Positions 11,101 to 26,585 of a stretch of 28,641 bases of DNA are shown piece by piece. Position 1 is the first letter of the stretch. The number at the start of each line of letters is the position of its first letter. The stretch is taken from the NCBI GenBank assembly GCA_031278595.1, contig JAITKE010000017.1, positions 1 through 28,641 on the forward strand, in the 5' to 3' direction. The position numbers and the translations under genes were made by a program. This DNA comes from Puniceicoccales bacterium. GTDB taxonomy: Bacteria > Verrucomicrobiota > Verrucomicrobiia > Opitutales > JAIRLG01. The notes below the pieces were generated by a model that searched no databases, was not told the origin of the DNA, and saw nothing but the letters and a program-made list of their open reading frames with translations.

Positions 11101-12640
11101 GACCCACTGGATTTCCAAAACATTTCGCGATCTGCACGAGGAAGTGGAGGGCCTGATGCGCCTGTTGCGGGAAAGCTTCCATCTCTCGAAGCGGCATCGC
11201 GTCCTGCTGGCGGTGCGGCCCGGGCACGAGCTCATCACCGGCGCCTTTGCCCTCCTGCGCCTGGGGGCGATTCCCATCATCATCGATGCCGGCATGGGCC
11301 TGCGGCGTTTCCTGTCCTGCGCGCGGAAGGCCCGTCCCGACTTCATCCTCGGGGCAGGCAGGCTGCGATGGGCCTCCATTTTCCTCCGCTCCTTCGAGCC
11401 CAGGCCACGCCTGATCTGGCTCACCCGGGGCTTCCTCCGCTCCTGGCAACGCTGCACCGCCTCCTCCGAATCCCCCTTCCGCCGGTCTCCCGGCGTTTCC
11501 GTACATCCCGATGACCTGGCGGCGATCCTCTTCAGCTCCGGATCGACGGGGACGGCCAAAGGTGTCCGCTACAGCCACCGGCAGTTCTCCGCCCAATTGG
11601 AGGCTTTACGGCGCAACTATCCCCTGTCCGAAGACGACGTCGATCTTCCCCTTCTACCCATTTTCTCGCTCTTCAATCCCCTCATCGGGCGCACGAGTGT
11701 CCTTCCCGAGATGGAGGCGACGAAGCCCTCGCGGCTGCGGGCCAAAAAGATCATCGAGGCCCTTCGGCAGCACCGCGTCACGAGCAGTTTCGGCGCCCCG
11801 GTGCTGTGGAGAAAAATCGCGCTCTACGGCTACCGCCACGGCCTTCAGCTGCCGGACATTCGCTTCCTATTCCTGGCCGGCGTTTCCTGCGATATCCCAA
11901 CGCTGGAGCTGCTGTGGCGCATCGTTCCCCAAGCCGAGATCCACACCCCCTACGGTGCAACGGAGGCCCTGCCCATCACCGACATCCGCGGCGACGAGAT
12001 CCTCTCCCGCTGGAAGGTCCTTCAGGAAAACGGCAGCGGCACCTGCGTCGGACGGCCCATCACCGGTGCCCAAGTGCGGATCATTCGGGTGACGGAGGAA
12101 GCCATTCCCCGATGGGAACCGGCCCTGGAGCTGGCGACGGGCCACGTGGGGGAGATCATCGTCGGCGGGCCCATGGTGACGGAGAGCTACGACGGCGAAC
12201 CCGAAAAGACCCGGTTGGCCAAGATTCAGGACGGCGACAGGGTCTGGCACCGCATGGGTGACCTGGGCTTTTTGGATCAGCAGGGCCGGCTCTGGTTCTG
12301 CGGCCGCCGGGCGGAGCGCGTCCTCGTCGGCGACGAGATCTTTTACCCCGACTGCACGGAACCCTTTTTTCTCAAGCACTCATCCGTCGCCCGCTGCGCC
12401 CTCATCGGCCTGAGGAGAAAGGGCCTCACGTTCCCCGCCATCGTCGTCCAGCCGAAACTCGGGCATTACCCGCTCTGGACCTACCAGAGAAACCGCTTCA
12501 TCGGGGAGCTTCGGGAAATTGCGGAGCGCTACGAAAAGACCCGCCGCATCCGGCATTTCTTCTTCCGCAAAAAACTGCCGGTCGATGTGCGGCACAATGC
12601 CAAAATCCATCGCCTGGCCCTGGCCAAGCGCTTCTCCTAG
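11000..12640 (+). CDS. oleC: AMP-binding (ANL superfamily) enzyme, OleC-like olefin beta-lactone synthetase
   Basis: AAILFSSGSTG, TPYGATEALP, WHRMGDLG and C-terminal LPVDVRHNAKIHR, which I recognise as OleC-typical. Start placed at ATG 11000 after GAAGGGGAG; the ORF track starts at 10985. Confidence 0.75.
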   Translation: MSSIHIADRLVLHAQKSPQRPALLIPRRRLLGLRTHWISKTFRDLHEEVEGLMRLLRESFHLSKRHRVLLAVRPGHELITGAFALLRLGAIPIIIDAGMGLRRFLSCARKARPDFILGAGRLRWASIFLRSFEPRPRLIWLTRGFLRSWQRCTASSESPFRRSPGVSVHPDDLAAILFSSGSTGTAKGVRYSHRQFSAQLEALRRNYPLSEDDVDLPLLPIFSLFNPLIGRTSVLPEMEATKPSRLRAKKIIEALRQHRVTSSFGAPVLWRKIALYGYRHGLQLPDIRFLFLAGVSCDIPTLELLWRIVPQAEIHTPYGATEALPITDIRGDEILSRWKVLQENGSGTCVGRPITGAQVRIIRVTEEAIPRWEPALELATGHVGEIIVGGPMVTESYDGEPEKTRLAKIQDGDRVWHRMGDLGFLDQQGRLWFCGRRAERVLVGDEIFYPDCTEPFFLKHSSVARCALIGLRRKGLTFPAIVVQPKLGHYPLWTYQRNRFIGELREIAERYEKTRRIRHFFFRKKLPVDVRHNAKIHRLALAKRFS

Positions 12641-12766
12641 AGAGTGTCGTCAAATAAAAGATTGGGCGGGGGCCCCGGGACGCTCGCTTCGCGAGCAAGC
12701 GGCTTTAGCCGCTTAAGCCCTCTTCGAGGGCTGTCCCGGGGCCCCAAAAAACCGATGTACCCTCTA
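12641..12766. mobile_element. Degenerate MITE (IS5-like end) containing a cloverleaf repeat
   Basis: CTAG (12637-12640, includes the oleC stop) is followed by AGAGTGTCGTCAAATAAAAG, matching the reverse complement of the 18067-18090 end. The right end is only partial (accctctaa near 12760-12768). Confidence 0.55.
12669..12745. repeat. Cloverleaf-type palindromic repeat (compact)
   Basis: Perfect 13-bp outer ggggccccgggac / gtcccggggcccc; inner gctcgc-ttc-gcgagc, aagcggc-ttta-gccgctt and agccctc-ttc-gagggct. Confidence 0.85.
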
Positions 12767-12907
12767 AAGCGAAAGTAGACTTCTTTCGGAACGATGAATT
12801 CTTCTGTCGATAAATCTTTTAAGCTCAAACATCTCCTACTTACTCCCTCAAAATTACTCTTTCTTTATATCGCCTTATCATCGTTTCGAAAGAAGCCTAC
12901 TGCCTAG

Positions 12908-13232
12908 AGGGTGTCGTCAAATCAAGCAGCGAAAAGGGAGTTATTGGATTTTGTTTTTGGGGTTGCCTTTGCGCCGAAGCCCCCGAATGGGGCTTCGGCG
13001 TGGGCCCGCCTTCGGCGGGCCGCTTCCCTTGGAAACCAAAGGCAACCCCAAAAAAGAGGAGCTTCTTGGCCTTGACACCGAGGGTGGCCCGTTCGGAGTT
13101 CCCTATGATATAAAAATTCCCTCTTTAGGCGTAAATCCCTCCGCCCAGACAGAAGGCATTTTTCACCGTAGAAGGCGAGAACCTGGCTACTGGCGAGGGC
13201 GCCCGGAGGGTTTTGGATTTCGGCGACAGCGC
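12908..13232. mobile_element. Probable MITE (IS5-like ends) containing a cloverleaf repeat
   Basis: Left end CTAG-AGGGTGTCGTCAAATCA (12904-12924). A degenerate right end, gatttcggcgacagcgc-CTAG, ends at 13236. Confidence 0.5.
12955..13053. repeat. Cloverleaf-type palindromic repeat (GCCTTTG/CAAAGGC subfamily)
   Basis: 17-bp outer ttttggggttgcctttg / caaaggcaaccccaaaa; inner cgccgaagcccc...ggggcttcggcg, ggcccgcc-ttc-ggcgggcc and ttcc-ctt-ggaa. Close relative at 24803-24901. Confidence 0.88.
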
Positions 13233-13245
13233 CTAGGTCGAACGC

Positions 13246-16002: not shown

Positions 16003-16106
16003 TTGGGGGCTGGCTTTGTCCGAAGGGGCAAGGACGTCCGTCCTTGCCCCTTCGGACGGCCCGCTCCGCGGGCCCGATTTCTCCGAAATCGAAAGCCAGC
16101 CCCCAA
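16003..16106. repeat. Cloverleaf-type palindromic repeat (GGCTGGCTTT subfamily)
   Basis: Outer ttgggggctggcttt / aaagccagcccccaa; inner 18-bp stem gtccgaaggggcaaggac / gtccttgccccttcggac, ggcccgc-tcc-gcgggcc and cgatttc-tcc-gaaatcg. Confidence 0.9.
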
Positions 16107-16200: not shown

Positions 16201-17916
16201 ATGTTTTCCGTCCTGCTCAGCATCCTCCTCTTCGGAGTCTCCATCTTCATCCATGAACTGGGCCATTACCTAGCCGCCCGGCGCCAGGGGCTCTTCATCC
16301 CGAGATTTTCCATCGGCTTCGGGCCGAAGCTCCTCTCCTGGCAGTTTCAGGGAACGGAATTCTGCCTCTCGCTCCTGCCGCTGGGCGGCTATGTGGCTCT
16401 GCCCCAACTCGCCGAACTCGAGGCCCTGGAGGGCAGCTACGTCCTCCCCGACACCTGCAAAAAACAGCTGAGCGCCTGGGACAAGTGCTCCGTTGCGCTG
16501 ATGGGCCCGCTGTTCAACCTCCTCCTGGCATTATTCGTGGCCTCCATCCTATGGATCCACGGCACACCGGGTTTTTCCGAAGACTCCTCGACCACCGTCG
16601 GCTACATTTTCCCCCATCTCCCGACTCCTTCCGGAAACATTCCCAATCCCAGCCTAGGGTCCGGACTGCAGCTGGGCGATGTCATTCTGTCCGTCGATGG
16701 GCAGCCGGTCTCCCGCTTCGAAGCCATCCAACAGGCCATCGGTCTCGGCTCCGGCCACGATGATCAAGGACGGGCAATGGTGGAATTGGAAGTGCGCCGT
16801 GGCGACGCGATCCTCCCGCTCACCCTCTATCCCGTCAAAATCTGCCTATCCAGTAATCGTTCGGACAGTCTCCGCAGCCTCGGCATCGCCCCGACCTCTT
16901 CCCTGAAGATCACGGGCATCGTGCCGAATACCCCCGCAGCTCAGGCCGGATTGCAGACAGGCGACCAGGTGCTGGCCGTTGATGGGCAGACGCTCTACTC
17001 CCTCCAACAGCTGCAGGATCATCTTCAGGGCTCCCCTTCGGCCATTCGGCTCTCGGTGCGGCGACGGGGGGAGGAGATCTCCCTCTCCGCCACACTGGCC
17101 GATGTCCCCATCAGCAAGGCCTACTGGAAGCTCGAAGATTCCCAAGGGCAGGAAATCCTCTGCCTCATCCCGCGGGACTCATCCCCCTCGCCGAAGTCCC
17201 AGTGGACCGAGGACCGCTTCGAGATCGGATTTTCGACGGGACATCGGTCGTCCTCCTCCCTGGCCGCCGGTGATGGACTCCTCCTGCCGGCGCATTCGGC
17301 CGATTTTTCCAACCTGGGCGAATGGCTATCCCGCGGCGCACCCCCCTCGCTTCGCTTTCAGAAACCCGACGGCAGTGTCTACGAATACCCACTGGGGAAT
17401 TACAGGACCCGGAACATAGCGGCGACCACCCTTCGCCGGCTGGGCATCGAATGCGCGCCGGAAATGGTCTGGCTCCACCTCTCGCCCTGGCGGCAGATTA
17501 GGAACTACGCCGCCCAGAGCGCCCAAACCCTGCGCAGCCTGCTTTCGCCGCACTCGGACGTGGCCCTGCGGCACCTGATGGGCCCCCCGGGCATTTTCAG
17601 GACGATGAACACCCTCGCCGCCCACAGCCTTTGGAACTTGCTGGCCTTTCTCGTCATGCTCAACGTCAATCTCGCCATTCTCAACCTCCTCCCGCTGCCG
17701 GTGCTCGATGGCGGCCACCTCATCCTGGCCGGGCTGCAAAAGCTCTCGGGGCGTGGCTTTCCTCTGCGGTGGTGGCAGCGCAGCCAGCTCCTCTTCATCC
17801 TCTTCTTCCTGGGCCTCATGATCTACGTTAGCTTTCATGACCTCCGGCGCTGGAGGGATGACCGACGCGATCGCTCGGCCCTGAAATTTCAGGAACAGAT
17901 CAGCCTTCACCCTTAG
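16201..17916 (+). CDS. rseP: RIP metalloprotease RseP (M50 site-2 protease with PDZ domains)
   Basis: FIHELGH (HExxH), FSIGFGP, LPLGGYV, GPLFN, two PDZ-like segments (GLQLGDVILSVDG, GLQTGDQVLAVDG) and NLLPLPVLDGG. Confidence 0.95.
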   Translation: MFSVLLSILLFGVSIFIHELGHYLAARRQGLFIPRFSIGFGPKLLSWQFQGTEFCLSLLPLGGYVALPQLAELEALEGSYVLPDTCKKQLSAWDKCSVALMGPLFNLLLALFVASILWIHGTPGFSEDSSTTVGYIFPHLPTPSGNIPNPSLGSGLQLGDVILSVDGQPVSRFEAIQQAIGLGSGHDDQGRAMVELEVRRGDAILPLTLYPVKICLSSNRSDSLRSLGIAPTSSLKITGIVPNTPAAQAGLQTGDQVLAVDGQTLYSLQQLQDHLQGSPSAIRLSVRRRGEEISLSATLADVPISKAYWKLEDSQGQEILCLIPRDSSPSPKSQWTEDRFEIGFSTGHRSSSSLAAGDGLLLPAHSADFSNLGEWLSRGAPPSLRFQKPDGSVYEYPLGNYRTRNIAATTLRRLGIECAPEMVWLHLSPWRQIRNYAAQSAQTLRSLLSPHSDVALRHLMGPPGIFRTMNTLAAHSLWNLLAFLVMLNVNLAILNLLPLPVLDGGHLILAGLQKLSGRGFPLRWWQRSQLLFILFFLGLMIYVSFHDLRRWRDDRRDRSALKFQEQISLHP

Positions 17917-18086
17917 AAGATGTCGTCAAATCAAATGGAGACTTTTCCATCTTGCAAATCAGGTCGCAACCTCCTCATCTTGTTCCACAATTCGCCTGAT
18001 AGGTCGTATCTCTTATGCGTTCTTTTTTCATTCCCTCTTTCTTCCTCTCTTTTTTCCTTTGTTCCTCTTTTATTTGACGACACCCT
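17917..18086 (-). mobile_element. MITE derived from an IS5-family element (copy A, 170 bp)
   Basis: Inverted ends AAGATGTCGTCAAAT / ATTTGACGACACCCT, flanked by TTAG (rseP stop) and CTAG. The minus strand reads KRTHKRYDLSGELWNKMRRLRP, resembling an IS5-family transposase N-terminus (RYDLTDxxW..I..LLP). Confidence 0.82.
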
Positions 18087-18202
18087 CTAGGGTACCCATT
18101 TCGTCAGCTCTTGGGTGATGGACTTCGATTGCGTGATCTCCTATGCGATTCCGGGGGCACGGATTCACCGACGATGGAAAACGTATAAAGGGAAAGGGGA
18201 TT

Positions 18203-19325
18203 TTAGTAATGTCTCCAGGGGGACATTTCGCGATACCAGTGCCAGAGGCTTGAAAACTGCAAATTTACTGTATTTTCGTCGCTGCTGTTCTGTACTAGGC
18301 CCAGCTCTTCTTTTCTAGAAAGCAGATTCAAAATGTCGGCAATAGGCTTGGTTTGAGATGGATCGGCGTCTGGCGCGAAGGTAGCTCGCACCATACCCCA
18401 GTCTTGGACGCTCGCCGAGTGAATAGATTCTATCTGTTCTGAGGTCGCTGATGATGACGGATGAAGGTACAAGGTAACGGAGAATCCCCTGCGTGCTCCT
18501 TCGAAGGTGAGCAGCGCCCACAGGTTTTTTTTGATAATCACCTTATAGGAAGAATCTCTCTGGCAGAGAATCCATGGGGCCGGCGCTGACTTGAGCCTTA
18601 TTTCATTTCTCTGCACTGGGGCGGAGTCCATTTGGGGATCAAGGGTAGCCTGAAAGGTGCAAATGGCGATGGGTGACGCAGGTACGGATATTTTTAAGGG
18701 TATTGTTGACGGACTGTCATCGGAAGCCCGAAAGTTCAAACCCACGACGGTGATGTCGAAGTCATAGCAAAGGGTTTGTTGATCCTCTTGAAGGCAGCCA
18801 AGCCGCTGGAGCACATCTCCTAGCTCAGAAATTTGTTGGATTGCGGCCCAAGCTTCCCGTGGAAGCGACGATCCTTGCGACATGGCGAGTAGTTTTTCCT
18901 TAAAGATTACTTTCTGTTCCTGCTGCAGGGAGACGGAAGGGCGTGGTATTTTTCGCTCGGAAGATCGGATGATTGGCTGCGACGAAAGGCCTCGCGTACC
19001 TGCTATAAATACAGGGGAATTCGGAATATCTAATCCTTCGGGAATATTCCATGGTTTTCTATTACTTCCTGCGAAATGTGTGATGGCTATGTTAGGATTA
19101 TTTATGTGAGGAAAGCATATGGTATTCCATTGTCTCGAGTATTAGGATATGGATAACGAGTTCGTCTTCCGCCGCCATGTTCTTGCCTATGCTGTAGGCC
19201 GCCACGCCGATGTATTCGCAGAAACGATTTTTGTCGCAAAAGAAGACGACATGGATCTTTTCCGCCGGCAAACCGAGGACGACCGACAGAAGGAGAAAAG
19301 AGGCAAAAATCTTACGGTACAACAT
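18203..19325 (-). pseudogene. Disrupted GT8-like glycosyltransferase with signal peptide and long unknown C-terminal extension
   Basis: From ATG 19325: MLYRKIFASFLLLSVVLG, then KIHVVFFCDKNRFCEYIGVAAYSIGKN...IHIL (GT8 N-terminus). A second frame, open 19141-18203, reads YSRQWN...NPNIAITHFAGSNRKPW (GT8 C-terminal motif) and continues into the 226-aa ORF. The central DxD region is absent. Confidence 0.7.
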
Positions 19326-19408
19326 AGGACAACGCCCTTTCTTTGTGCTGGGGGGGGAGTCAAGAGCAAATTTGGATGCTTTTTGATATTGGTCGGCAAT
19401 AAAACCAG

Positions 19409-19553
19409 AAGATGTCGTCAAATCAGATAGCAACCTTCTCCTCTTGTTCCACAATTCATCTGATGGGTCGTATCTCCTATGTGTCCTTTTTTCCATGCCC
19501 TCTTTTCTTCCTCTCTTTCTCCCTTTATTAGACTTTTATTTTGACGACGCCCT
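19409..19553 (-). mobile_element. MITE derived from an IS5-family element (copy B, 145 bp)
   Basis: Same ends (AAGATGTCGTCAAATCA ... TTTTGACGACGCCCT-CTAG) and a co-linear interior with copy A, minus a 28-nt segment bounded by caaatca repeats. The minus strand reads MEKRTHRRYDPSDELWNK from ATG 19496. Confidence 0.82.
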
Positions 19554-19649
19554 CTAGGTGGGCGATTTCCGAAGCGGGATTTCCGTCGGCTTTGGCGGGG
19601 ATTTTCTCACAATTTTGCTATTGACGGAAATCACGGGAATTATCTCGCC

Positions 19650-21215: not shown

Positions 21216-21304
21216 TTCGCCGTCTTTGCAAGCCACAAACCGCAGGTTTGTGGCTTGATGCCCGCGCAAAGCGGGCGATTCCTTCGGAATCCAAAGACGG
21301 CGAA
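21216..21304. repeat. Cloverleaf-type palindromic repeat (left copy of a direct pair)
   Basis: Outer ttcgccgtctttg / caaagacggcgaa; inner caagccacaaacc-gca-ggtttgtggcttg, gcccgc-gcaaa-gcgggc and gattcc-ttc-ggaatc. Confidence 0.9.
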
Positions 21305-22616: not shown

Positions 22617-22703
22617 TTCGCCGTCTTTGCAAGCCACAAACCGTAGGTTTGTGGCTTGGTGCCCGCGAAGCGGGCGATTCCTTCGGAATCCAAAGACGGC
22701 GAA
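22617..22703. repeat. Cloverleaf-type palindromic repeat (right copy of the direct pair)
   Basis: Near-identical to 21216-21304 in the same orientation; differences fall in the loops and a linker (gca/gta, gcaaa/gaa). Confidence 0.9.
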
Positions 22704-22773: not shown

Positions 22774-22882
22774 GGTTTGCCGCCTTTTGAGCCCGAGGGG
22801 CTCTCGCCCGCTATGCGGGCCGCGACAAGAAAAAATGAAAGCTCTCGCTTTACATTTTTTCTTGTTGCAAAGGCGGCAAACC
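22774..22882. repeat. Cloverleaf-type palindromic repeat (reverse orientation)
   Basis: Outer ggtttgccgccttt / aaaggcggcaaacc; inner gagccc-gag-gggctc, gcccgc-tat-gcgggc and a long arm gcgacaagaaaaaatg...cattttttcttgttgc. Confidence 0.8.
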
Positions 22883-24412: not shown

Positions 24413-24648
24413 ATGCCTGGGTCGGTATTGTAGGTGGCCGGAATCCGGCGTCAACTCCGAGTTTTCCCATTGGGTAGATTTGTAAAGAGCCGACTCTCAG
24501 TTCCCAAACGACTGGCAAGGTATCTGACGCTATTTCCAGTTCCCGGAGATTGGCAAAACATCTGAGGTTGTTTCCGTTCCCGGGGGTTGGCGAGGCGCCT
24601 GAGGGAATTTCCGGCGTGATCCGCCCAAGCTCGAATGCGGATGCCTTC

Positions 24649-24735
24649 GCTGGCTTTCCAGGGCCCCAATGATAAAATCATTGGGGCCCTGGGGCCCGCA
24701 CAGCGGGCCCGATTTCTCCGAAATCGAAAGCCAGC
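24649..24735. repeat. Cloverleaf-type palindromic repeat (GCTGGCTTT subfamily)
   Basis: Outer gctggcttt / aaagccagc; perfect 16-bp arm ccagggccccaatgat-aaa-atcattggggccctgg; ggcccgc-aca-gcgggcc; cgatttc-tcc-gaaatcg. Confidence 0.88.
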
Positions 24736-24802
24736 CGGCATAGAAGTCTAGTCACTTGATAAATCTAGCCCCCTGATTTTAATTTTGGGGCTACCTTTGT
24801 AG

Positions 24803-24901
24803 TTTTGGGGCTGCCTTTGCGCCGAAGCCCCCGAAGGGGGCTTCGGCGGTGGCCCGCCTCCGGCGGGCCGCGTCCGTCGGAAGCCCAAGGCAGCCCCAAA
24901 A
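24803..24901. repeat. Cloverleaf-type palindromic repeat (GCCTTTG subfamily)
   Basis: Outer ttttggggctgcctt / aaggcagccccaaaa; inner cgccgaagccccc-gaa-gggggcttcggcg and ggcccgcc-tcc-ggcgggcc. The 5' arm is partly duplicated at 24783-24799. Confidence 0.88.
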
Positions 24902-25004
24902 CAACCCTTCGCTATTTTATCCTCTCCACCGGCCGGGGGCTCTTTCACTGCCGGCGATGACTTATGTCGACGAAGACCTTGTCCTTATGTCAATGGTGGC
25001 TTTT

Positions 25005-25865
25005 ATGCCGGCGGTGACTTTGTCCTTCCTGCTGGAACGGGCCGTGCGTTTTCTGCAGGGCCGAGGCGTGGGGTTTGCCCGGGCCGAGGCCGAACACCTG
25101 CTGACCCACGTCCTGGGCTGCCGGCGCTGCGAGCTCCCTCTGCGCCGAGGGGAAAGGGTCGAACGGGCACTGCTGACCGAATTCCTTCCTCTGCTGCGCC
25201 GTCGGGGCCGGCGCGAGCCGCTGGCGTATGTGCTGGGGGAATCTGATTTCCACGAACTTTCGCTGCGCTGTGACCGGCGGGCGCTGATCCCGCGACCCGA
25301 GACGGAGGAGCTGGTCGAATGGCTGCTGGGCCGATGGGAAAAAAATCCTCCGGCCCGGGTGCTGGACCTGGGGACCGGCAGCGGGGCCATCGGCCTCGCC
25401 CTGGCCCGGGCCTTTCCGAGGAGCTGCGTGATGGCCGTCGACCTCGATCCGGCCGCACTGGATTTGGCGAGGGAGAACGCGGAGAGAAATCGAGTGGACA
25501 ATATTCGCTTCGTCCGCTCGGATTGGTTCGAAAAAATCCAGGGCCGCTTCGACCTGATGGTGGCGAACCCGCCCTACCTGACGGCGGAGGAGCTGGAAAG
25601 CGCCGAACCGGAGGTGCGGGATTACGAGCCGAGAAAAGCGCTGGGCGCGGCCGAGGAGGGCCTGGCCGAGCTGCTCCGCATTTTGAGAAGCGCGAAGAAT
25701 TTCATGACCCCTTCGGCCTGGCTGGTGATGGAGATGGGTATCGCCCATGGGGAGGTGCTGAAGAGGGAAGCCGAGAGCTTAGGCTTTGGTTCGGTGCACA
25801 TTCGCCGCGACCTTTCGGGTCGACCGCGCTTTTTCCTGGCGAGCCAGGGGTTGCTGACGTTCTAG
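25005..25865 (+). CDS. prmC: Release-factor glutamine methyltransferase PrmC/HemK
   Basis: RREPLAYVLG, LIPRPETEELV, VLDLGTGSG and NPPY. The start is uncertain: in-frame ATGs at 24957, 24987, 24993 and 25005, with 25005 giving a typical length. Confidence 0.93.
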   Translation: MPAVTLSFLLERAVRFLQGRGVGFARAEAEHLLTHVLGCRRCELPLRRGERVERALLTEFLPLLRRRGRREPLAYVLGESDFHELSLRCDRRALIPRPETEELVEWLLGRWEKNPPARVLDLGTGSGAIGLALARAFPRSCVMAVDLDPAALDLARENAERNRVDNIRFVRSDWFEKIQGRFDLMVANPPYLTAEELESAEPEVRDYEPRKALGAAEEGLAELLRILRSAKNFMTPSAWLVMEMGIAHGEVLKREAESLGFGSVHIRRDLSGRPRFFLASQGLLTF

Positions 25866-26036
25866 AGGGCGCCGTCTTTACTGGTCTTGGTGGGGGCCGG
25901 CTTTGCCCGGAAGAGGAAAAGGCCTCCGGCCTTTTCCCCTCCGGGCGGCCCGCTCCGCGGGCCCGATGCCTCCGACATCGAAAGCCGGCCCCAAAAAACA
26001 CGGACCCTCCGGCAAACGCCCTTGACGAGACACCCT
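25866..26036. mobile_element. MITE (171 bp) with IS5-like ends and a CTAG target duplication, containing a cloverleaf
   Basis: CTAG at 25862-25865 and 26037-26040; ends AGGGCGCCGTC and (ttgac)GAGACACCCT resemble the 17917/19409 termini. Confidence 0.75.
25893..25992. repeat. Cloverleaf-type palindromic repeat (compensatory variant)
   Basis: Outer ggggccggcttt / aaagccggcccc; inner gcccgga..ggaaaaggcc / ggccttttcc..tccgggc, ggcccgc-tcc-gcgggcc and cgatg...catcg. Confidence 0.88.
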
Positions 26037-26585
26037 CTAGGGCTTTTCGAGGAATTTCGGCGTTTCCGGCGGCGCCATTGCCGGTGCCACCGCCTTGGCC
26101 ACCATCGGCGTTGGCAGCTGCTGCGAGCGCAGAAATCCGGTCACGAAGAGGTGGATTTTCAGCTTTTTCGCCACCCCGAGCTCGTCCACCAGGAGGCGTT
26201 GCAGTTCGAACTGGAGCCGCGAGCCCAGGTCCTGTAGCGACTGGTGCTGGAGGATTTTGAAGTGAATGCTGAGCTCGATGCGATGGGGGTGGAGACGGAT
26301 GGCGATGTGGGGCCTCGTCCGAATGCCCTGGTCGAAGCAGGTCTGGATGAGGAGATCTTTGAGGGCCGATTTCTGCAGAAATAGCTTCCCCGCCTTTCCC
26401 TGGGCGATGCAGAGCTTGCGGTGGGGTTGTGCCAGGAGACGGCCGAGGTGCAGGAAAATCCAGAGGAGGAGGAGATAGCGCAGGGGCAAGCTGTGGTAAA
26501 CGTCGTGAAACAGCGCAGTCCAGTCCATATGCCACAGCATTTCGTGCAGCTCGAAAAACCAGCGGTTGATGACATCCAAATTCAT
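26037..26585 (-). CDS. Membrane-anchored protein, possibly AmaP/Asp23-related
   Basis: One hydrophobic segment (LPLRYLLLLWIFLHLG), then G.LFLQKSALKDLL...IELSIHF...LQFELQRLL...LKIHLFV, which resembles the AmaP/Asp23 alpha/beta pattern. The family call is tentative. Confidence 0.55.
   Translation of the reverse strand: MNLDVINRWFFELHEMLWHMDWTALFHDVYHSLPLRYLLLLWIFLHLGRLLAQPHRKLCIAQGKAGKLFLQKSALKDLLIQTCFDQGIRTRPHIAIRLHPHRIELSIHFKILQHQSLQDLGSRLQFELQRLLVDELGVAKKLKIHLFVTGFLRSQQLPTPMVAKAVAPAMAPPETPKFLEKP

What the first reader, a model, noticed from the sequence alone, without database searches (positions are those of the whole stretch)
25862..26040. MITE inserted exactly into a shared CTAG where two convergent stop codons overlapped
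Seen: prmC (+) ends TTC-TAG at 25863-25865 and the amaP-like gene (-) ends CCC-TAG at 26037-26039. Both stops lie in the CTAG copies that flank a 171-bp element with inverted ends. Removing the element and one CTAG gives ...TTCTAGGGC..., two convergent genes overlapping on one palindromic CTAG. This reconstructs the empty site, fixes the target duplication as 4-bp CTAG, and shows an insertion that leaves both proteins intact.
Basis: partly seen in the sequence, partly recalled or inferred. Interest (0 to 1): 0.68.

Follow-up and report, generated by a model that had tools for sequence, protein, structure and literature searches.

The report
Miniature transposon between two stop codons
A 173-base non-coding jumping element landed in the four letters CTAG that two tail-to-tail genes shared as their stop codons. 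A sister species still has the untouched site, so the event is proven, but it is an ordinary kind of bacterial mobile DNA.

Summary
prmC (+) stops at TAG 25863-25865. The weakly AmaP-like gene (-) stops at 26037-26039. Both stops lie in CTAG words that bracket a strongly folding element with inverted ends.

The predicted empty site exists. The closest same-genus genome, G003, reads TTCTAGGGC at the orthologous junction, with both C-termini unchanged.

One correction: the duplication is most likely 2 bp (TA) inside a YTAR target, not 4 bp. The element is then 25865-26037 (173 bp, 5'-G...C-3').
- Family-wide flanks fit TA.
- A non-palindromic empty site fits TA.
- Five genes end in TAA in G003 but in TA plus the element's G here.

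The ends match an IS5-family, IS427-group insertion sequence. One degraded 834-bp copy lies in the same genome, and G003 has none.

The interior is a separate, covarying four-way-junction ('cloverleaf') repeat. It has 13 copies in this window and 136 in G003.

I could assign no function beyond neutral insertion. This scan has noted the same phenomenon in 84 earlier findings from at least 82 other genomes, so this is a new member of a known kind.

The parts
24957..25865 (+). prmC (release-factor glutamine methyltransferase). The start codon is tentative. The stop TAG 25863-25865 is made of target TA plus the first base (G) of the element.
   Evidence: TIGR03534 258 bits, PrmC_N + MTS. The G003 orthologue is 84% identical and ends at the same residue.
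25863..25864 (.). Left copy of the duplicated target dinucleotide TA (inside CTAG 25862-25865).
25865..26037 (.). The whole non-autonomous element (MITE), 173 bp under the TA model. It has no transposase.
   Evidence: Absent from the orthologous site in G003 and G001. The family is multicopy in the own genome. Rfam gives nothing above noise.
25865..25880 (+). Left terminal inverted repeat, degenerate. The first 12 nt match the attested GAGGGCGCCGTC variant; the following AAAT is replaced by TTTA.
25893..25992 (+). Passenger: a 'cloverleaf' four-way-junction repeat. An outer 12-bp stem closes a long arm, a 6-7-bp GGCCCGC arm and a 6-7-bp GATGCC arm. One pair of the short arm is broken in this copy.
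   Evidence: Covariance model R1 scores 94 bits, E 2.7e-17. Covariation over 34 copies: 23 of 41 pairs change on both sides.
26022..26037 (-). Right terminal inverted repeat. Read inward it is GAGGGTGTC(TC)GTCAA, that is the consensus with a 2-nt insertion.
26038..26039 (.). Right copy of the duplicated TA (inside CTAG 26037-26040).
26037..26585 (-). 182-aa membrane-protein gene, weakly AmaP-like. Its stop (complement of 26037-26039) is the element's last base C plus target TA.
   Evidence: NF033218 28.7 bits, below the cut-off of 55. Orthologues occur in G001-G003, and the G003 C-terminus is the same.

Best explanation
The element is a fossil MITE: a non-coding element carrying the terminal inverted repeats of an IS5-family, IS427-group insertion sequence. 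It was moved in trans by that transposase into the TA at the centre of a CTAG in which prmC and the convergent membrane-protein gene overlapped their stop codons. The insertion happened in the lineage of this termite-gut MAG after it split from sister species G003. Insertion duplicated TA. Because the element begins with G and ends with C, each side reads TAG inward, so both genes keep a stop at the same codon and neither protein changes. The interior is not transposase debris. It is a copy of an independent, very abundant structured repeat (the 'cloverleaf') that rides between the IS ends. Shown: the insertion, the empty site, the shared ends, a cognate IS in the same genome, and intact C-termini. 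Inferred: TA rather than CTAG as the duplication at this particular site, mobilisation in trans, and selective neutrality. The degenerate ends suggest this copy can no longer move.
For: (1) Empty site. G003 has prmC and the AmaP-like gene overlapping on one CTAG, with flanks that align to the window on both sides. G001 also has a compact junction without the element.
(2) Family. The consensus end (TA)GAGGGTGTCGTCAAAT occurs 83 times in G000, 43 in G001, 132 in G002 and 0 in G003, with controls at 0. It bounds at least three interior types.
(3) Parent IS. G000:C100:7634-8467 (834 bp) has the same ends and is flanked by TA. Read with X at one frameshift and one in-frame TAG, it scores NF033580 IS5-family transposase at 225 bits (cut-off 110), plus DUF4096 and DDE_Tnp_1. 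Relatives number 8 in G001, 23 in G002 and 0 in G003. An 843-bp IS with the identical end and TA flanks occurs in a Dehalococcoidia genome. Size, 2-bp repeat and two frameshifted ORFs match IS427-group elements (832-865 bp, DR 2; PMC3281130). A TA duplication within a YTAG-type consensus (AYTAG) is published for IS1301 (PMC2193550); its assignment to the IS427 group is my recollection.
(4) TA duplication. In 36 paired elements the outer flank base varies (C 64, T 18, G 1) while the inner G/C is constant, and the pairs TTA...TAG (4) and CTA...TAA (2) occur. At C31:1530-1814 the element is flanked TTTC-TA-[G...C]-TA-AAC, against TTTT-TA-AAT in G003.
(5) Stop rebuilding. 14 of 82 ends close an ORF of at least 250 codons in frame, against 1 and 3 in the other two frames. 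At 12 orthologous stops G003 has TAG 6 times, TAA 5 times and TGA once, and all ten readable targets are YTAR.
Against: At this locus the palindromic target makes 2-bp and 4-bp duplication indistinguishable. IS5-family MITEs with a true 4-nt CTAG/YTAA duplication do exist (MITEPsy1, PMC3189936).
The only IS copy found in this 69%-complete assembly is broken, so no active transposase is shown.
No other copy in the assembly shares this element's exact left arm (25866-25880), so transposition of this precise unit is inferred, not seen twice.
The left junction is not covered by independent contigs.
Only three insertion blocks gave clean two-sided empty sites in G003, because intergenic DNA has diverged.
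Confidence: 0.88

Rival explanations
1. The insertion is the same, but with a genuine 4-bp CTAG target duplication as in the IS5 group proper. The element would be the 171 bp AGGG...CCCT.
For: CTAG flanks both sides here. 12 of 36 paired copies show CTA...TAG. MITEPsy1 of the IS5 family duplicates CTAG or YTAA (PMC3189936).
Against: Where the target is not a palindrome the inner bases stay G and C while only the outer bases vary. This holds for the IS itself (CTA|G...C|TAA), for C31 against its G003 empty site, and for five genes with TAA in G003 but TA+G here. IS427-group elements of this size make 2-bp repeats (PMC3281130).
Confidence: 0.07
2. The spacer is kept for a function. The structured core would act as a transcription barrier, terminator or RNA-stability element that separates two convergent genes which formerly ran into each other. 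The MITE would then be exapted rather than neutral.
For: The fold is very stable on both strands (z about -8). The core structure is kept by compensatory changes. G002 independently has a cloverleaf-type element in the same intergenic position.
Against: The terminator scan finds nothing here: the long arm is followed by only 4 T. Cloverleaf copies lie in tandem, convergent and divergent spacers alike and show no clear orientation bias (G000 17 same-sense and 21 opposite in tandem spacers; G003 26 and 14). G003 and G001 do without any spacer. G-U pairs are rare among the substitutions, which fits pairing needed on both DNA strands better than a strand-specific RNA. No RNA data exist.
Confidence: 0.12
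3. The element is ancestral, and G003 (and G001) lost it by precise excision or deletion between the short repeats.
For: G000, G001 and G002 all carry the MITE family, while G003, the nearest relative of G000, has none. A simple tree would allow one loss.
Against: This needs a scar-free loss at this site, and the loss of every one of the roughly 40-130 terminal repeats and all transposase remnants in G003. The outgroup G001 also lacks the element at this junction.
Confidence: 0.03
4. It is an IS630/Tc1-mariner-type MITE. That family also duplicates TA and favours CTAG.
For: TA duplication in a CTAG/YTAR target.
Against: No DDE_3 transposase in G000-G003, although the positive controls ring. 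The same ends bound IS5-family transposase genes in this genome and elsewhere.
Confidence: 0.02

Closest known systems
IS427-group insertion sequences of the IS5 family (for example IS1248, ISPpa2; IS1301 of Neisseria meningitidis, whose group assignment is my recollection)
   Same: Ends begin GAG. The parent is about 834-843 bp with two frameshifted ORFs (DUF4096 + DDE). The direct repeat is 2 bp. TA is duplicated inside a YTAG-type target (PMC3281130, PMC2193550).
   Different: The element here has no transposase and carries an unrelated structured repeat instead. Subgroup assignment rests on size, repeat length, ORF layout and NF033580, not on a tree with ISfinder references.
MITEPsy1 / ISPsy2 of Pseudomonas syringae (an IS5-family MITE shown to transpose; PMC3189936)
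   Same: A small non-coding element with IS5-family ends, a CTAG/YTAA target, and a parent IS in the same genome.
   Different: MITEPsy1 duplicates 4 nt and has different ends; here the evidence favours 2 nt. MITEPsy1 is 100 nt with no structured passenger.
Correia/NEMIS, RUP and other bacterial TA-duplicating MITEs (from general knowledge)
   Same: High-copy, strongly folding, TA-flanked elements that sit at gene ends in small genomes.
   Different: The terminal repeats are unrelated and the presumed transposase family differs. No promoter or terminator activity is shown here.
REP/BIME elements and Rickettsia palindromic elements (for the cloverleaf passenger only; from general knowledge)
   Same: A very abundant, structure-conserved palindromic repeat. 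Like RPEs, two copies sit in frame inside genes: mutL and a hemW-like gene.
   Different: It is a four-way junction rather than a single hairpin. No RAYT/Y1 transposase was found in G000, G002 or G003. How it moves is unknown.

Membership tests
MITE (non-autonomous derivative of a DNA transposon) | Short, with no transposase coding capacity | tested here: met
   173 bp. Only chance ORFs of at most 51 aa lie wholly inside it; none was run against a family library. The interior is a structured repeat.
MITE (non-autonomous derivative of a DNA transposon) | Terminal inverted repeats shared with an autonomous element | tested here: met
   The ends match those of the IS at G000:C100:7634-8467 and of an 843-bp IS in L091. 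The left end of this copy is degenerate.
MITE (non-autonomous derivative of a DNA transposon) | Target-site duplication and a demonstrable empty site | tested here: met
   TA (or CTAG) lies on both sides. G003 has a single CTAG at the orthologous junction.
MITE (non-autonomous derivative of a DNA transposon) | Multiple dispersed copies | tested here: met
   48 matches to the element in G000 and 83 terminal repeats.
IS5 family, IS427 group (as source of the ends) | DDE transposase of the IS5 family with a DUF4096 N-terminal part, in two ORFs joined by a frameshift | tested here: met
   NF033580 225 bits, PF13340 94 bits, PF01609 42 bits, read through one frameshift. The copy also has one in-frame TAG, so it is probably dead.
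IS5 family, IS427 group (as source of the ends) | Length about 800-1000 bp and a 2-bp direct repeat | tested here: met
   834 bp and 843 bp, each flanked by TA. Compare PMC3281130 Table 2.
IS5 family, IS427 group (as source of the ends) | Placement within the IS427 clade by phylogeny against ISfinder references | not testable with these tools
   No ISfinder library is available here.
IS630 / Tc1-mariner MITEs | Cognate DDE_3 transposase | tested here: not met
   PF13358 was not found in G000-G003; it was found in 5 of the 14 control genomes.
Intrinsic (bidirectional) terminator | GC-rich hairpin followed by a T-run | tested here: not met
   The scan of 25600-26300 finds none.
REP/BIME (for the core) | Associated RAYT (Y1 HUH) transposase | tested here: inconclusive
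   PF01797 occurs only as degraded copies in G001 and was not found in G000, G002 or G003. G000 is 69% complete.
Known RNA family (Rfam) | Match at the gathering score | tested here: not met
   The best hits are miRNA models at 25 bits against gathering scores of 60-270.

The most novel reading that the evidence does not exclude
The interesting object may be the passenger rather than the insertion. The 'cloverleaf' could be an undescribed class of structure-conserved mobile DNA. It saturates these 0.8-0.9 Mb symbiont genomes (136 loci in G003, 13 in this 28.6-kb window), keeps a four-way junction by compensatory change, can sit in frame inside essential genes, and in G000 has been picked up between IS427-group ends. 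The MITE at prmC would then be one of its vehicles. A weaker corollary: the G...C termini plus TA duplication make every TAA or TAG stop codon a safe landing site, which lets such elements spread in gene-dense reduced genomes.
Probability: 0.3. Interest if true: 0.6.

Novelty: new member of a known kind. Interest (0 to 1): 0.3.

Why it matters
As a single event it matters little: a transposon landed where it does no harm.

Its value is as a clean, fully documented case. The filled site, the exact empty site in a sister species, the parent IS and the family statistics together show how TA-duplicating elements with G...C tips rebuild TAG stops. That explains why they pile up on stop codons in compact genomes.

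It also flags a genus of reduced termite-gut bacteria in which three species carry this MITE/IS family and the fourth has none. That contrast is a natural experiment for studying repeat invasion, and it points to an unexplained, extremely abundant structured repeat.

Tried and rejected
- Rfam at permissive E-values gave only noise.
- IS630 parentage: no DDE_3 was found.
- Terminator and promoter scan: nothing.
- RAYT/Y1 transposase as mover of the core: not found in G000, G002 or G003.
- Search for an empty allele in the source community: only Logan contigs are available. They show no joint that skips the element and do not cover 25844-25880. This neither supports nor refutes polymorphism.
- Genome-wide pairing of both flanks of 39 insertion blocks against the whole G003 genome gave only 3 clean two-sided empty sites, because intergenic DNA has diverged or holds other repeats. 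Individual alignments were then read by eye.
- At C97 no usable empty site emerged from the alignment; at C31 the apparent flank duplication is a second, truncated copy of the GTPase gene's 5' end.
- A crude ORF-based context analysis first put 20 cores 'inside genes'. Most of these were artefacts of over-long ORF starts, and only two are confirmed.
- Megablast of titled Puniceicoccales loci against G000 and G003 found almost nothing. tblastx shows 45-54% amino-acid identity. The order-level name is therefore an inference from record titles of other MAGs and was not tested on this genome.

Full report
**1. What is in the sequence**

One search shows ...GACG TTC TAG A GGG CGC... at 25856 onward. 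The prmC frame ends with TAG at 25863-25865, inside CTAG 25862-25865.

At 26030-26040 the sequence reads ACACCCTCTAG. The minus-strand ORF 26037..26585 ends K-P-stop, and its stop is the complement of 26037-26039, inside CTAG 26037-26040. Between the two CTAGs lie 171 bases.

The outermost 8 nt are a perfect inverted repeat (I8). The whole stretch folds far better than shuffles on both strands, at -105.8 and -117 kcal/mol with z about -8.

The gene names differ in strength:
- prmC is secure: TIGR03534 258 bits, plus PrmC_N and MTS.
- The partner gene has no Pfam hit and only a sub-threshold AmaP match, NF033218 at 28.7 bits against a cut-off of 55.

**2. The empty site**

The window is contig C11 of a 110-contig, 853-kb, 69%-complete genome, G000. 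Three same-genus genomes carry the AmaP-like gene. tblastn placed prmC next to it in all three.
- **G003** is the closest (prmC 84% and AmaP-like 76-78% amino-acid identity). Its two genes overlap, and the DNA reads ...GCGTTCTAGGGCTTTTCGAG....
- **G001** has a compact junction of different sequence without any element.
- **G002** has a spacer of about 258 bp. It holds a different, end-less element of the same four-way architecture.

Both G000 proteins end at the same residue as in G003.

The target was unusual. I fetched the complete G003 assembly. CTAG occurs there 973 times against 2933 expected from base composition. Of these, 101 are stops of long ORFs, and only 2 are shared by two convergent long ORFs. 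The prmC junction is one of those two.

**3. What the element is**

It belongs to a large family. There are 48 matches in G000 and 89 blastn HSPs. Alignment of copies with their flanks showed that similarity on the right runs to ...GACGACACCCTC followed by TA. Many copies are adjacent to, or nested with, a second element type that has the same ends.

A fuzzy search for the consensus end, (TA)GAGGGTGTCGTCAAAT, found about 115 genuine ends bounding at least three interior types. At up to 2 mismatches the counts are:

| Genome | Terminal repeats |
|---|---|
| G000 | 83 |
| G001 | 43 |
| G002 | 132 |
| G003 | 0 |
| Reversed control (each genome) | 0 |

The exact 18-mer also occurs in unrelated MAGs: Gammaproteobacteria, Waddliaceae, Dehalococcoidia and several 'Puniceicoccales bacterium' MAGs. 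In a Dehalococcoidia contig, two such ends 843 bp apart and flanked by TA enclose DUF4096 and DDE_Tnp_1 reading frames.

Using that protein as a query found one relative in G000, at C100:7659-8105. It found 8 in G001, 23 in G002 and none in G003.

The G000 copy spans C100:7634-8467 (834 bp) and is flanked CTA|G...C|TAA. It has one frameshift near an A/G-rich run and one in-frame TAG. Read with X at both breaks it scores NF033580 'IS5 family transposase' at 225 bits (cut-off 110), with PF13340 and PF01609.

The common 'B' MITE is the first 150 bp or so of this IS, including about 20 codons, fused to the other end (one search compared).

Size, 2-bp repeat and two frameshifted ORFs are the published signature of the IS427 group (832-865 bp, DR 2 bp; PMC3281130). 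A TA duplication inside the YTAG-type consensus AYTAG is published for IS1301 (PMC2193550). That IS1301 belongs to this group is my recollection, not something tested here. No IS630-type DDE_3 gene exists in any of the four genomes.

**4. TA or CTAG?**

This locus cannot decide, because the target is a palindrome. Four observations elsewhere favour TA:
- **Constant inner bases.** In 82-83 TA-flanked ends the outer base is C (64), T (18) or G (1), while the first element base is G.
- **Asymmetric pairs.** Among 36 simple pairs there are four TTA...TAG and two CTA...TAA. A 4-bp duplication would require a matching change on the inner side, which is never seen. The IS itself is CTA|G...C|TAA.
- **A non-palindromic empty site.** C31:1530-1814 is flanked TTTC-TA-[G...C]-TA-AAC, where G003 reads TTTT-TA-AAT.
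- **TAA in the sister genome.** For 12 genes whose stop abuts an element end and whose C-terminus is conserved, G003 has TAG 6 times, TAA 5 times and TGA once. G000 always has TA plus the element's G. All ten readable targets are Y-TA-R.

A 3-bp model fails for the same reason as the 4-bp model. I therefore set the element at 25865-26037 (173 bp), with TA at 25863-64 and 26038-39. I rate the 4-bp reading at about 0.07.

**5. Stop codons as landing sites**

Of the 82 TA-flanked ends, 14 close an ORF of at least 250 codons in frame with TA+G. The other two frames give 1 and 3.

About 10% of CTAG sites in the MITE-free genome are stops. By my rough count, about one third of insertion sites in G000 touch a stop. 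This fits a YTAR preference combined with selection against insertions inside genes.

This scan has reported the same pattern in 84 earlier findings from at least 82 genomes. The phenomenon is ordinary.

**6. The passenger**

Positions 25893-25992 form a four-way junction. Thirty-four copies from G000 and G003 align with 41 consensus pairs.

| Measure | Observed | Shuffled | Slid controls |
|---|---|---|---|
| Cells forming a standard pair | 96.5% | 87.0% | 38-57% |
| Pairs changed on both sides | 23 | 13.9 ± 1.5 | 7-12 |

None of 500 shuffles reached either observed value.

A covariance model finds 13 loci in the window. It finds 166 hits, or 136 distinct loci, in the 783,735-bp G003 genome, which has no IS ends. 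The cloverleaf is therefore independent of the MITE system, and the element at prmC is IS ends plus a captured cloverleaf.

Three observations argue against a terminator role or a strand-specific RNA role:
- Copies lie in tandem, convergent and divergent spacers without clear orientation bias.
- G-U pairs are rare.
- No terminator is predicted at this locus.

I can offer no mechanism for the cloverleaf's own spread. Y1 transposases were not found in G000, G002 or G003.

**7. Timing and state**

The insertion most likely occurred in the G000 lineage after the split from G003. Coding DNA of the two is 85-88% identical. This copy is 85-91% identical to its best relatives.

Its left end has lost the AAAT part of the repeat, and its right end carries a 2-nt insertion. 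With the only assembled IS broken as well, the copy is probably immobile.

G002 contig C75 holds a copy 89% identical, including the arms, although the two species' proteins are only about 60% identical. This suggests exchange between co-resident bacteria, or a mis-binned contig.

**8. Caveats**

- The left junction is unsupported by independent contigs.
- The host taxonomy (termite gut; Puniceicoccales from the titles of related MAGs) is inferred, not tested.
- Gene calls used for the statistics are crude ORF/GC3 calls made in scripts.

**9. Verdict**

The duplication length is corrected to TA, and the parent is identified as an IS427-group IS. This is a new member of a known kind, of modest interest, with an unexplained abundant structured repeat as the more novel by-product.

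Noticed in passing
window 58-167, 5352-5457, 5715-5809, 8042-8145, 12670-12744, 12959-13049, 16006-16103, 21216-21304, 22617-22703, 22776-22880, 24646-24738, 24807-24897, 25893-25992: Thirteen copies of a covarying four-way-junction ('cloverleaf') repeat lie in 28.6 kb. The same model finds 136 distinct loci in the 784-kb sister genome G003, which has no IS ends. There is no Rfam match and no known mover.
   Followed up: partly
G000:C9:9206-9302 (mutL) and G000:C49:2949-3045 (hemW-like gene): Cloverleaf copies sit in frame inside coding sequences. They add 40 aa to MutL and 41 aa to the HemW-like protein relative to the G003 orthologues, as Rickettsia palindromic elements do.
   Followed up: partly
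window 17916-19554: Two transposase-remnant MITEs (17916-18087 and 19408-19554) bracket about 1.3 kb; another first-reader note places a degraded GT8-like gene at 18203-19325. The whole block is flanked by TA and is replaced by 5 bp in G003 (C4:32459-32463). It looks like a MITE-bounded composite transposon inserted in the TAA stop of the upstream gene.
   Followed up: partly
window 12640-13238: About 600 bp of IS-end-bounded elements, including two cloverleaves, follow the stop of the upstream gene. In G003 they correspond to 3 bp (C4:28763-28765). The stop is TAA in G003 and TA+G here.
   Followed up: partly
G000:C100:7634-8467: This is the only IS5-family (IS427-group) copy found in the assembly. 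It is 834 bp, TA-flanked, with one frameshift (possibly programmed) and an in-frame TAG.
   Followed up: yes
G003 whole genome (L177-L224): The nearest relative of G000 has no terminal repeat and no transposase remnant of this IS, while the more distant G001 and G002 have 43 and 132 ends. The element family was either gained several times or lost completely once.
   Followed up: partly
G002:C75:1421-1688 (L229): A B+A composite MITE is 89% identical to the G000 element including its arms, although the two species' proteins are only about 60% identical. This could be horizontal spread between co-resident gut bacteria or a mis-binned contig.
   Followed up: no
G000:C31:1530-1814: A 285-bp composite MITE sits in the first codons of a P-loop GTPase gene (GRPNVGKS motif), with a second, truncated copy of the gene's 5' end just upstream. 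A TTG inside the terminal repeat is in frame with the rest of the gene and might serve as a new start.
   Followed up: no
G001 (L225-L228): Ten degraded Y1 (IS200/IS605- or RAYT-type) transposase fragments occur in G001 only.
   Followed up: no
L087-L166: The exact 18-nt terminal repeat recurs in MAGs of Gammaproteobacteria (often about 80 bp from contig ends), Waddliaceae, Dehalococcoidia and others. This IS clade is spread across phyla.
   Followed up: partly
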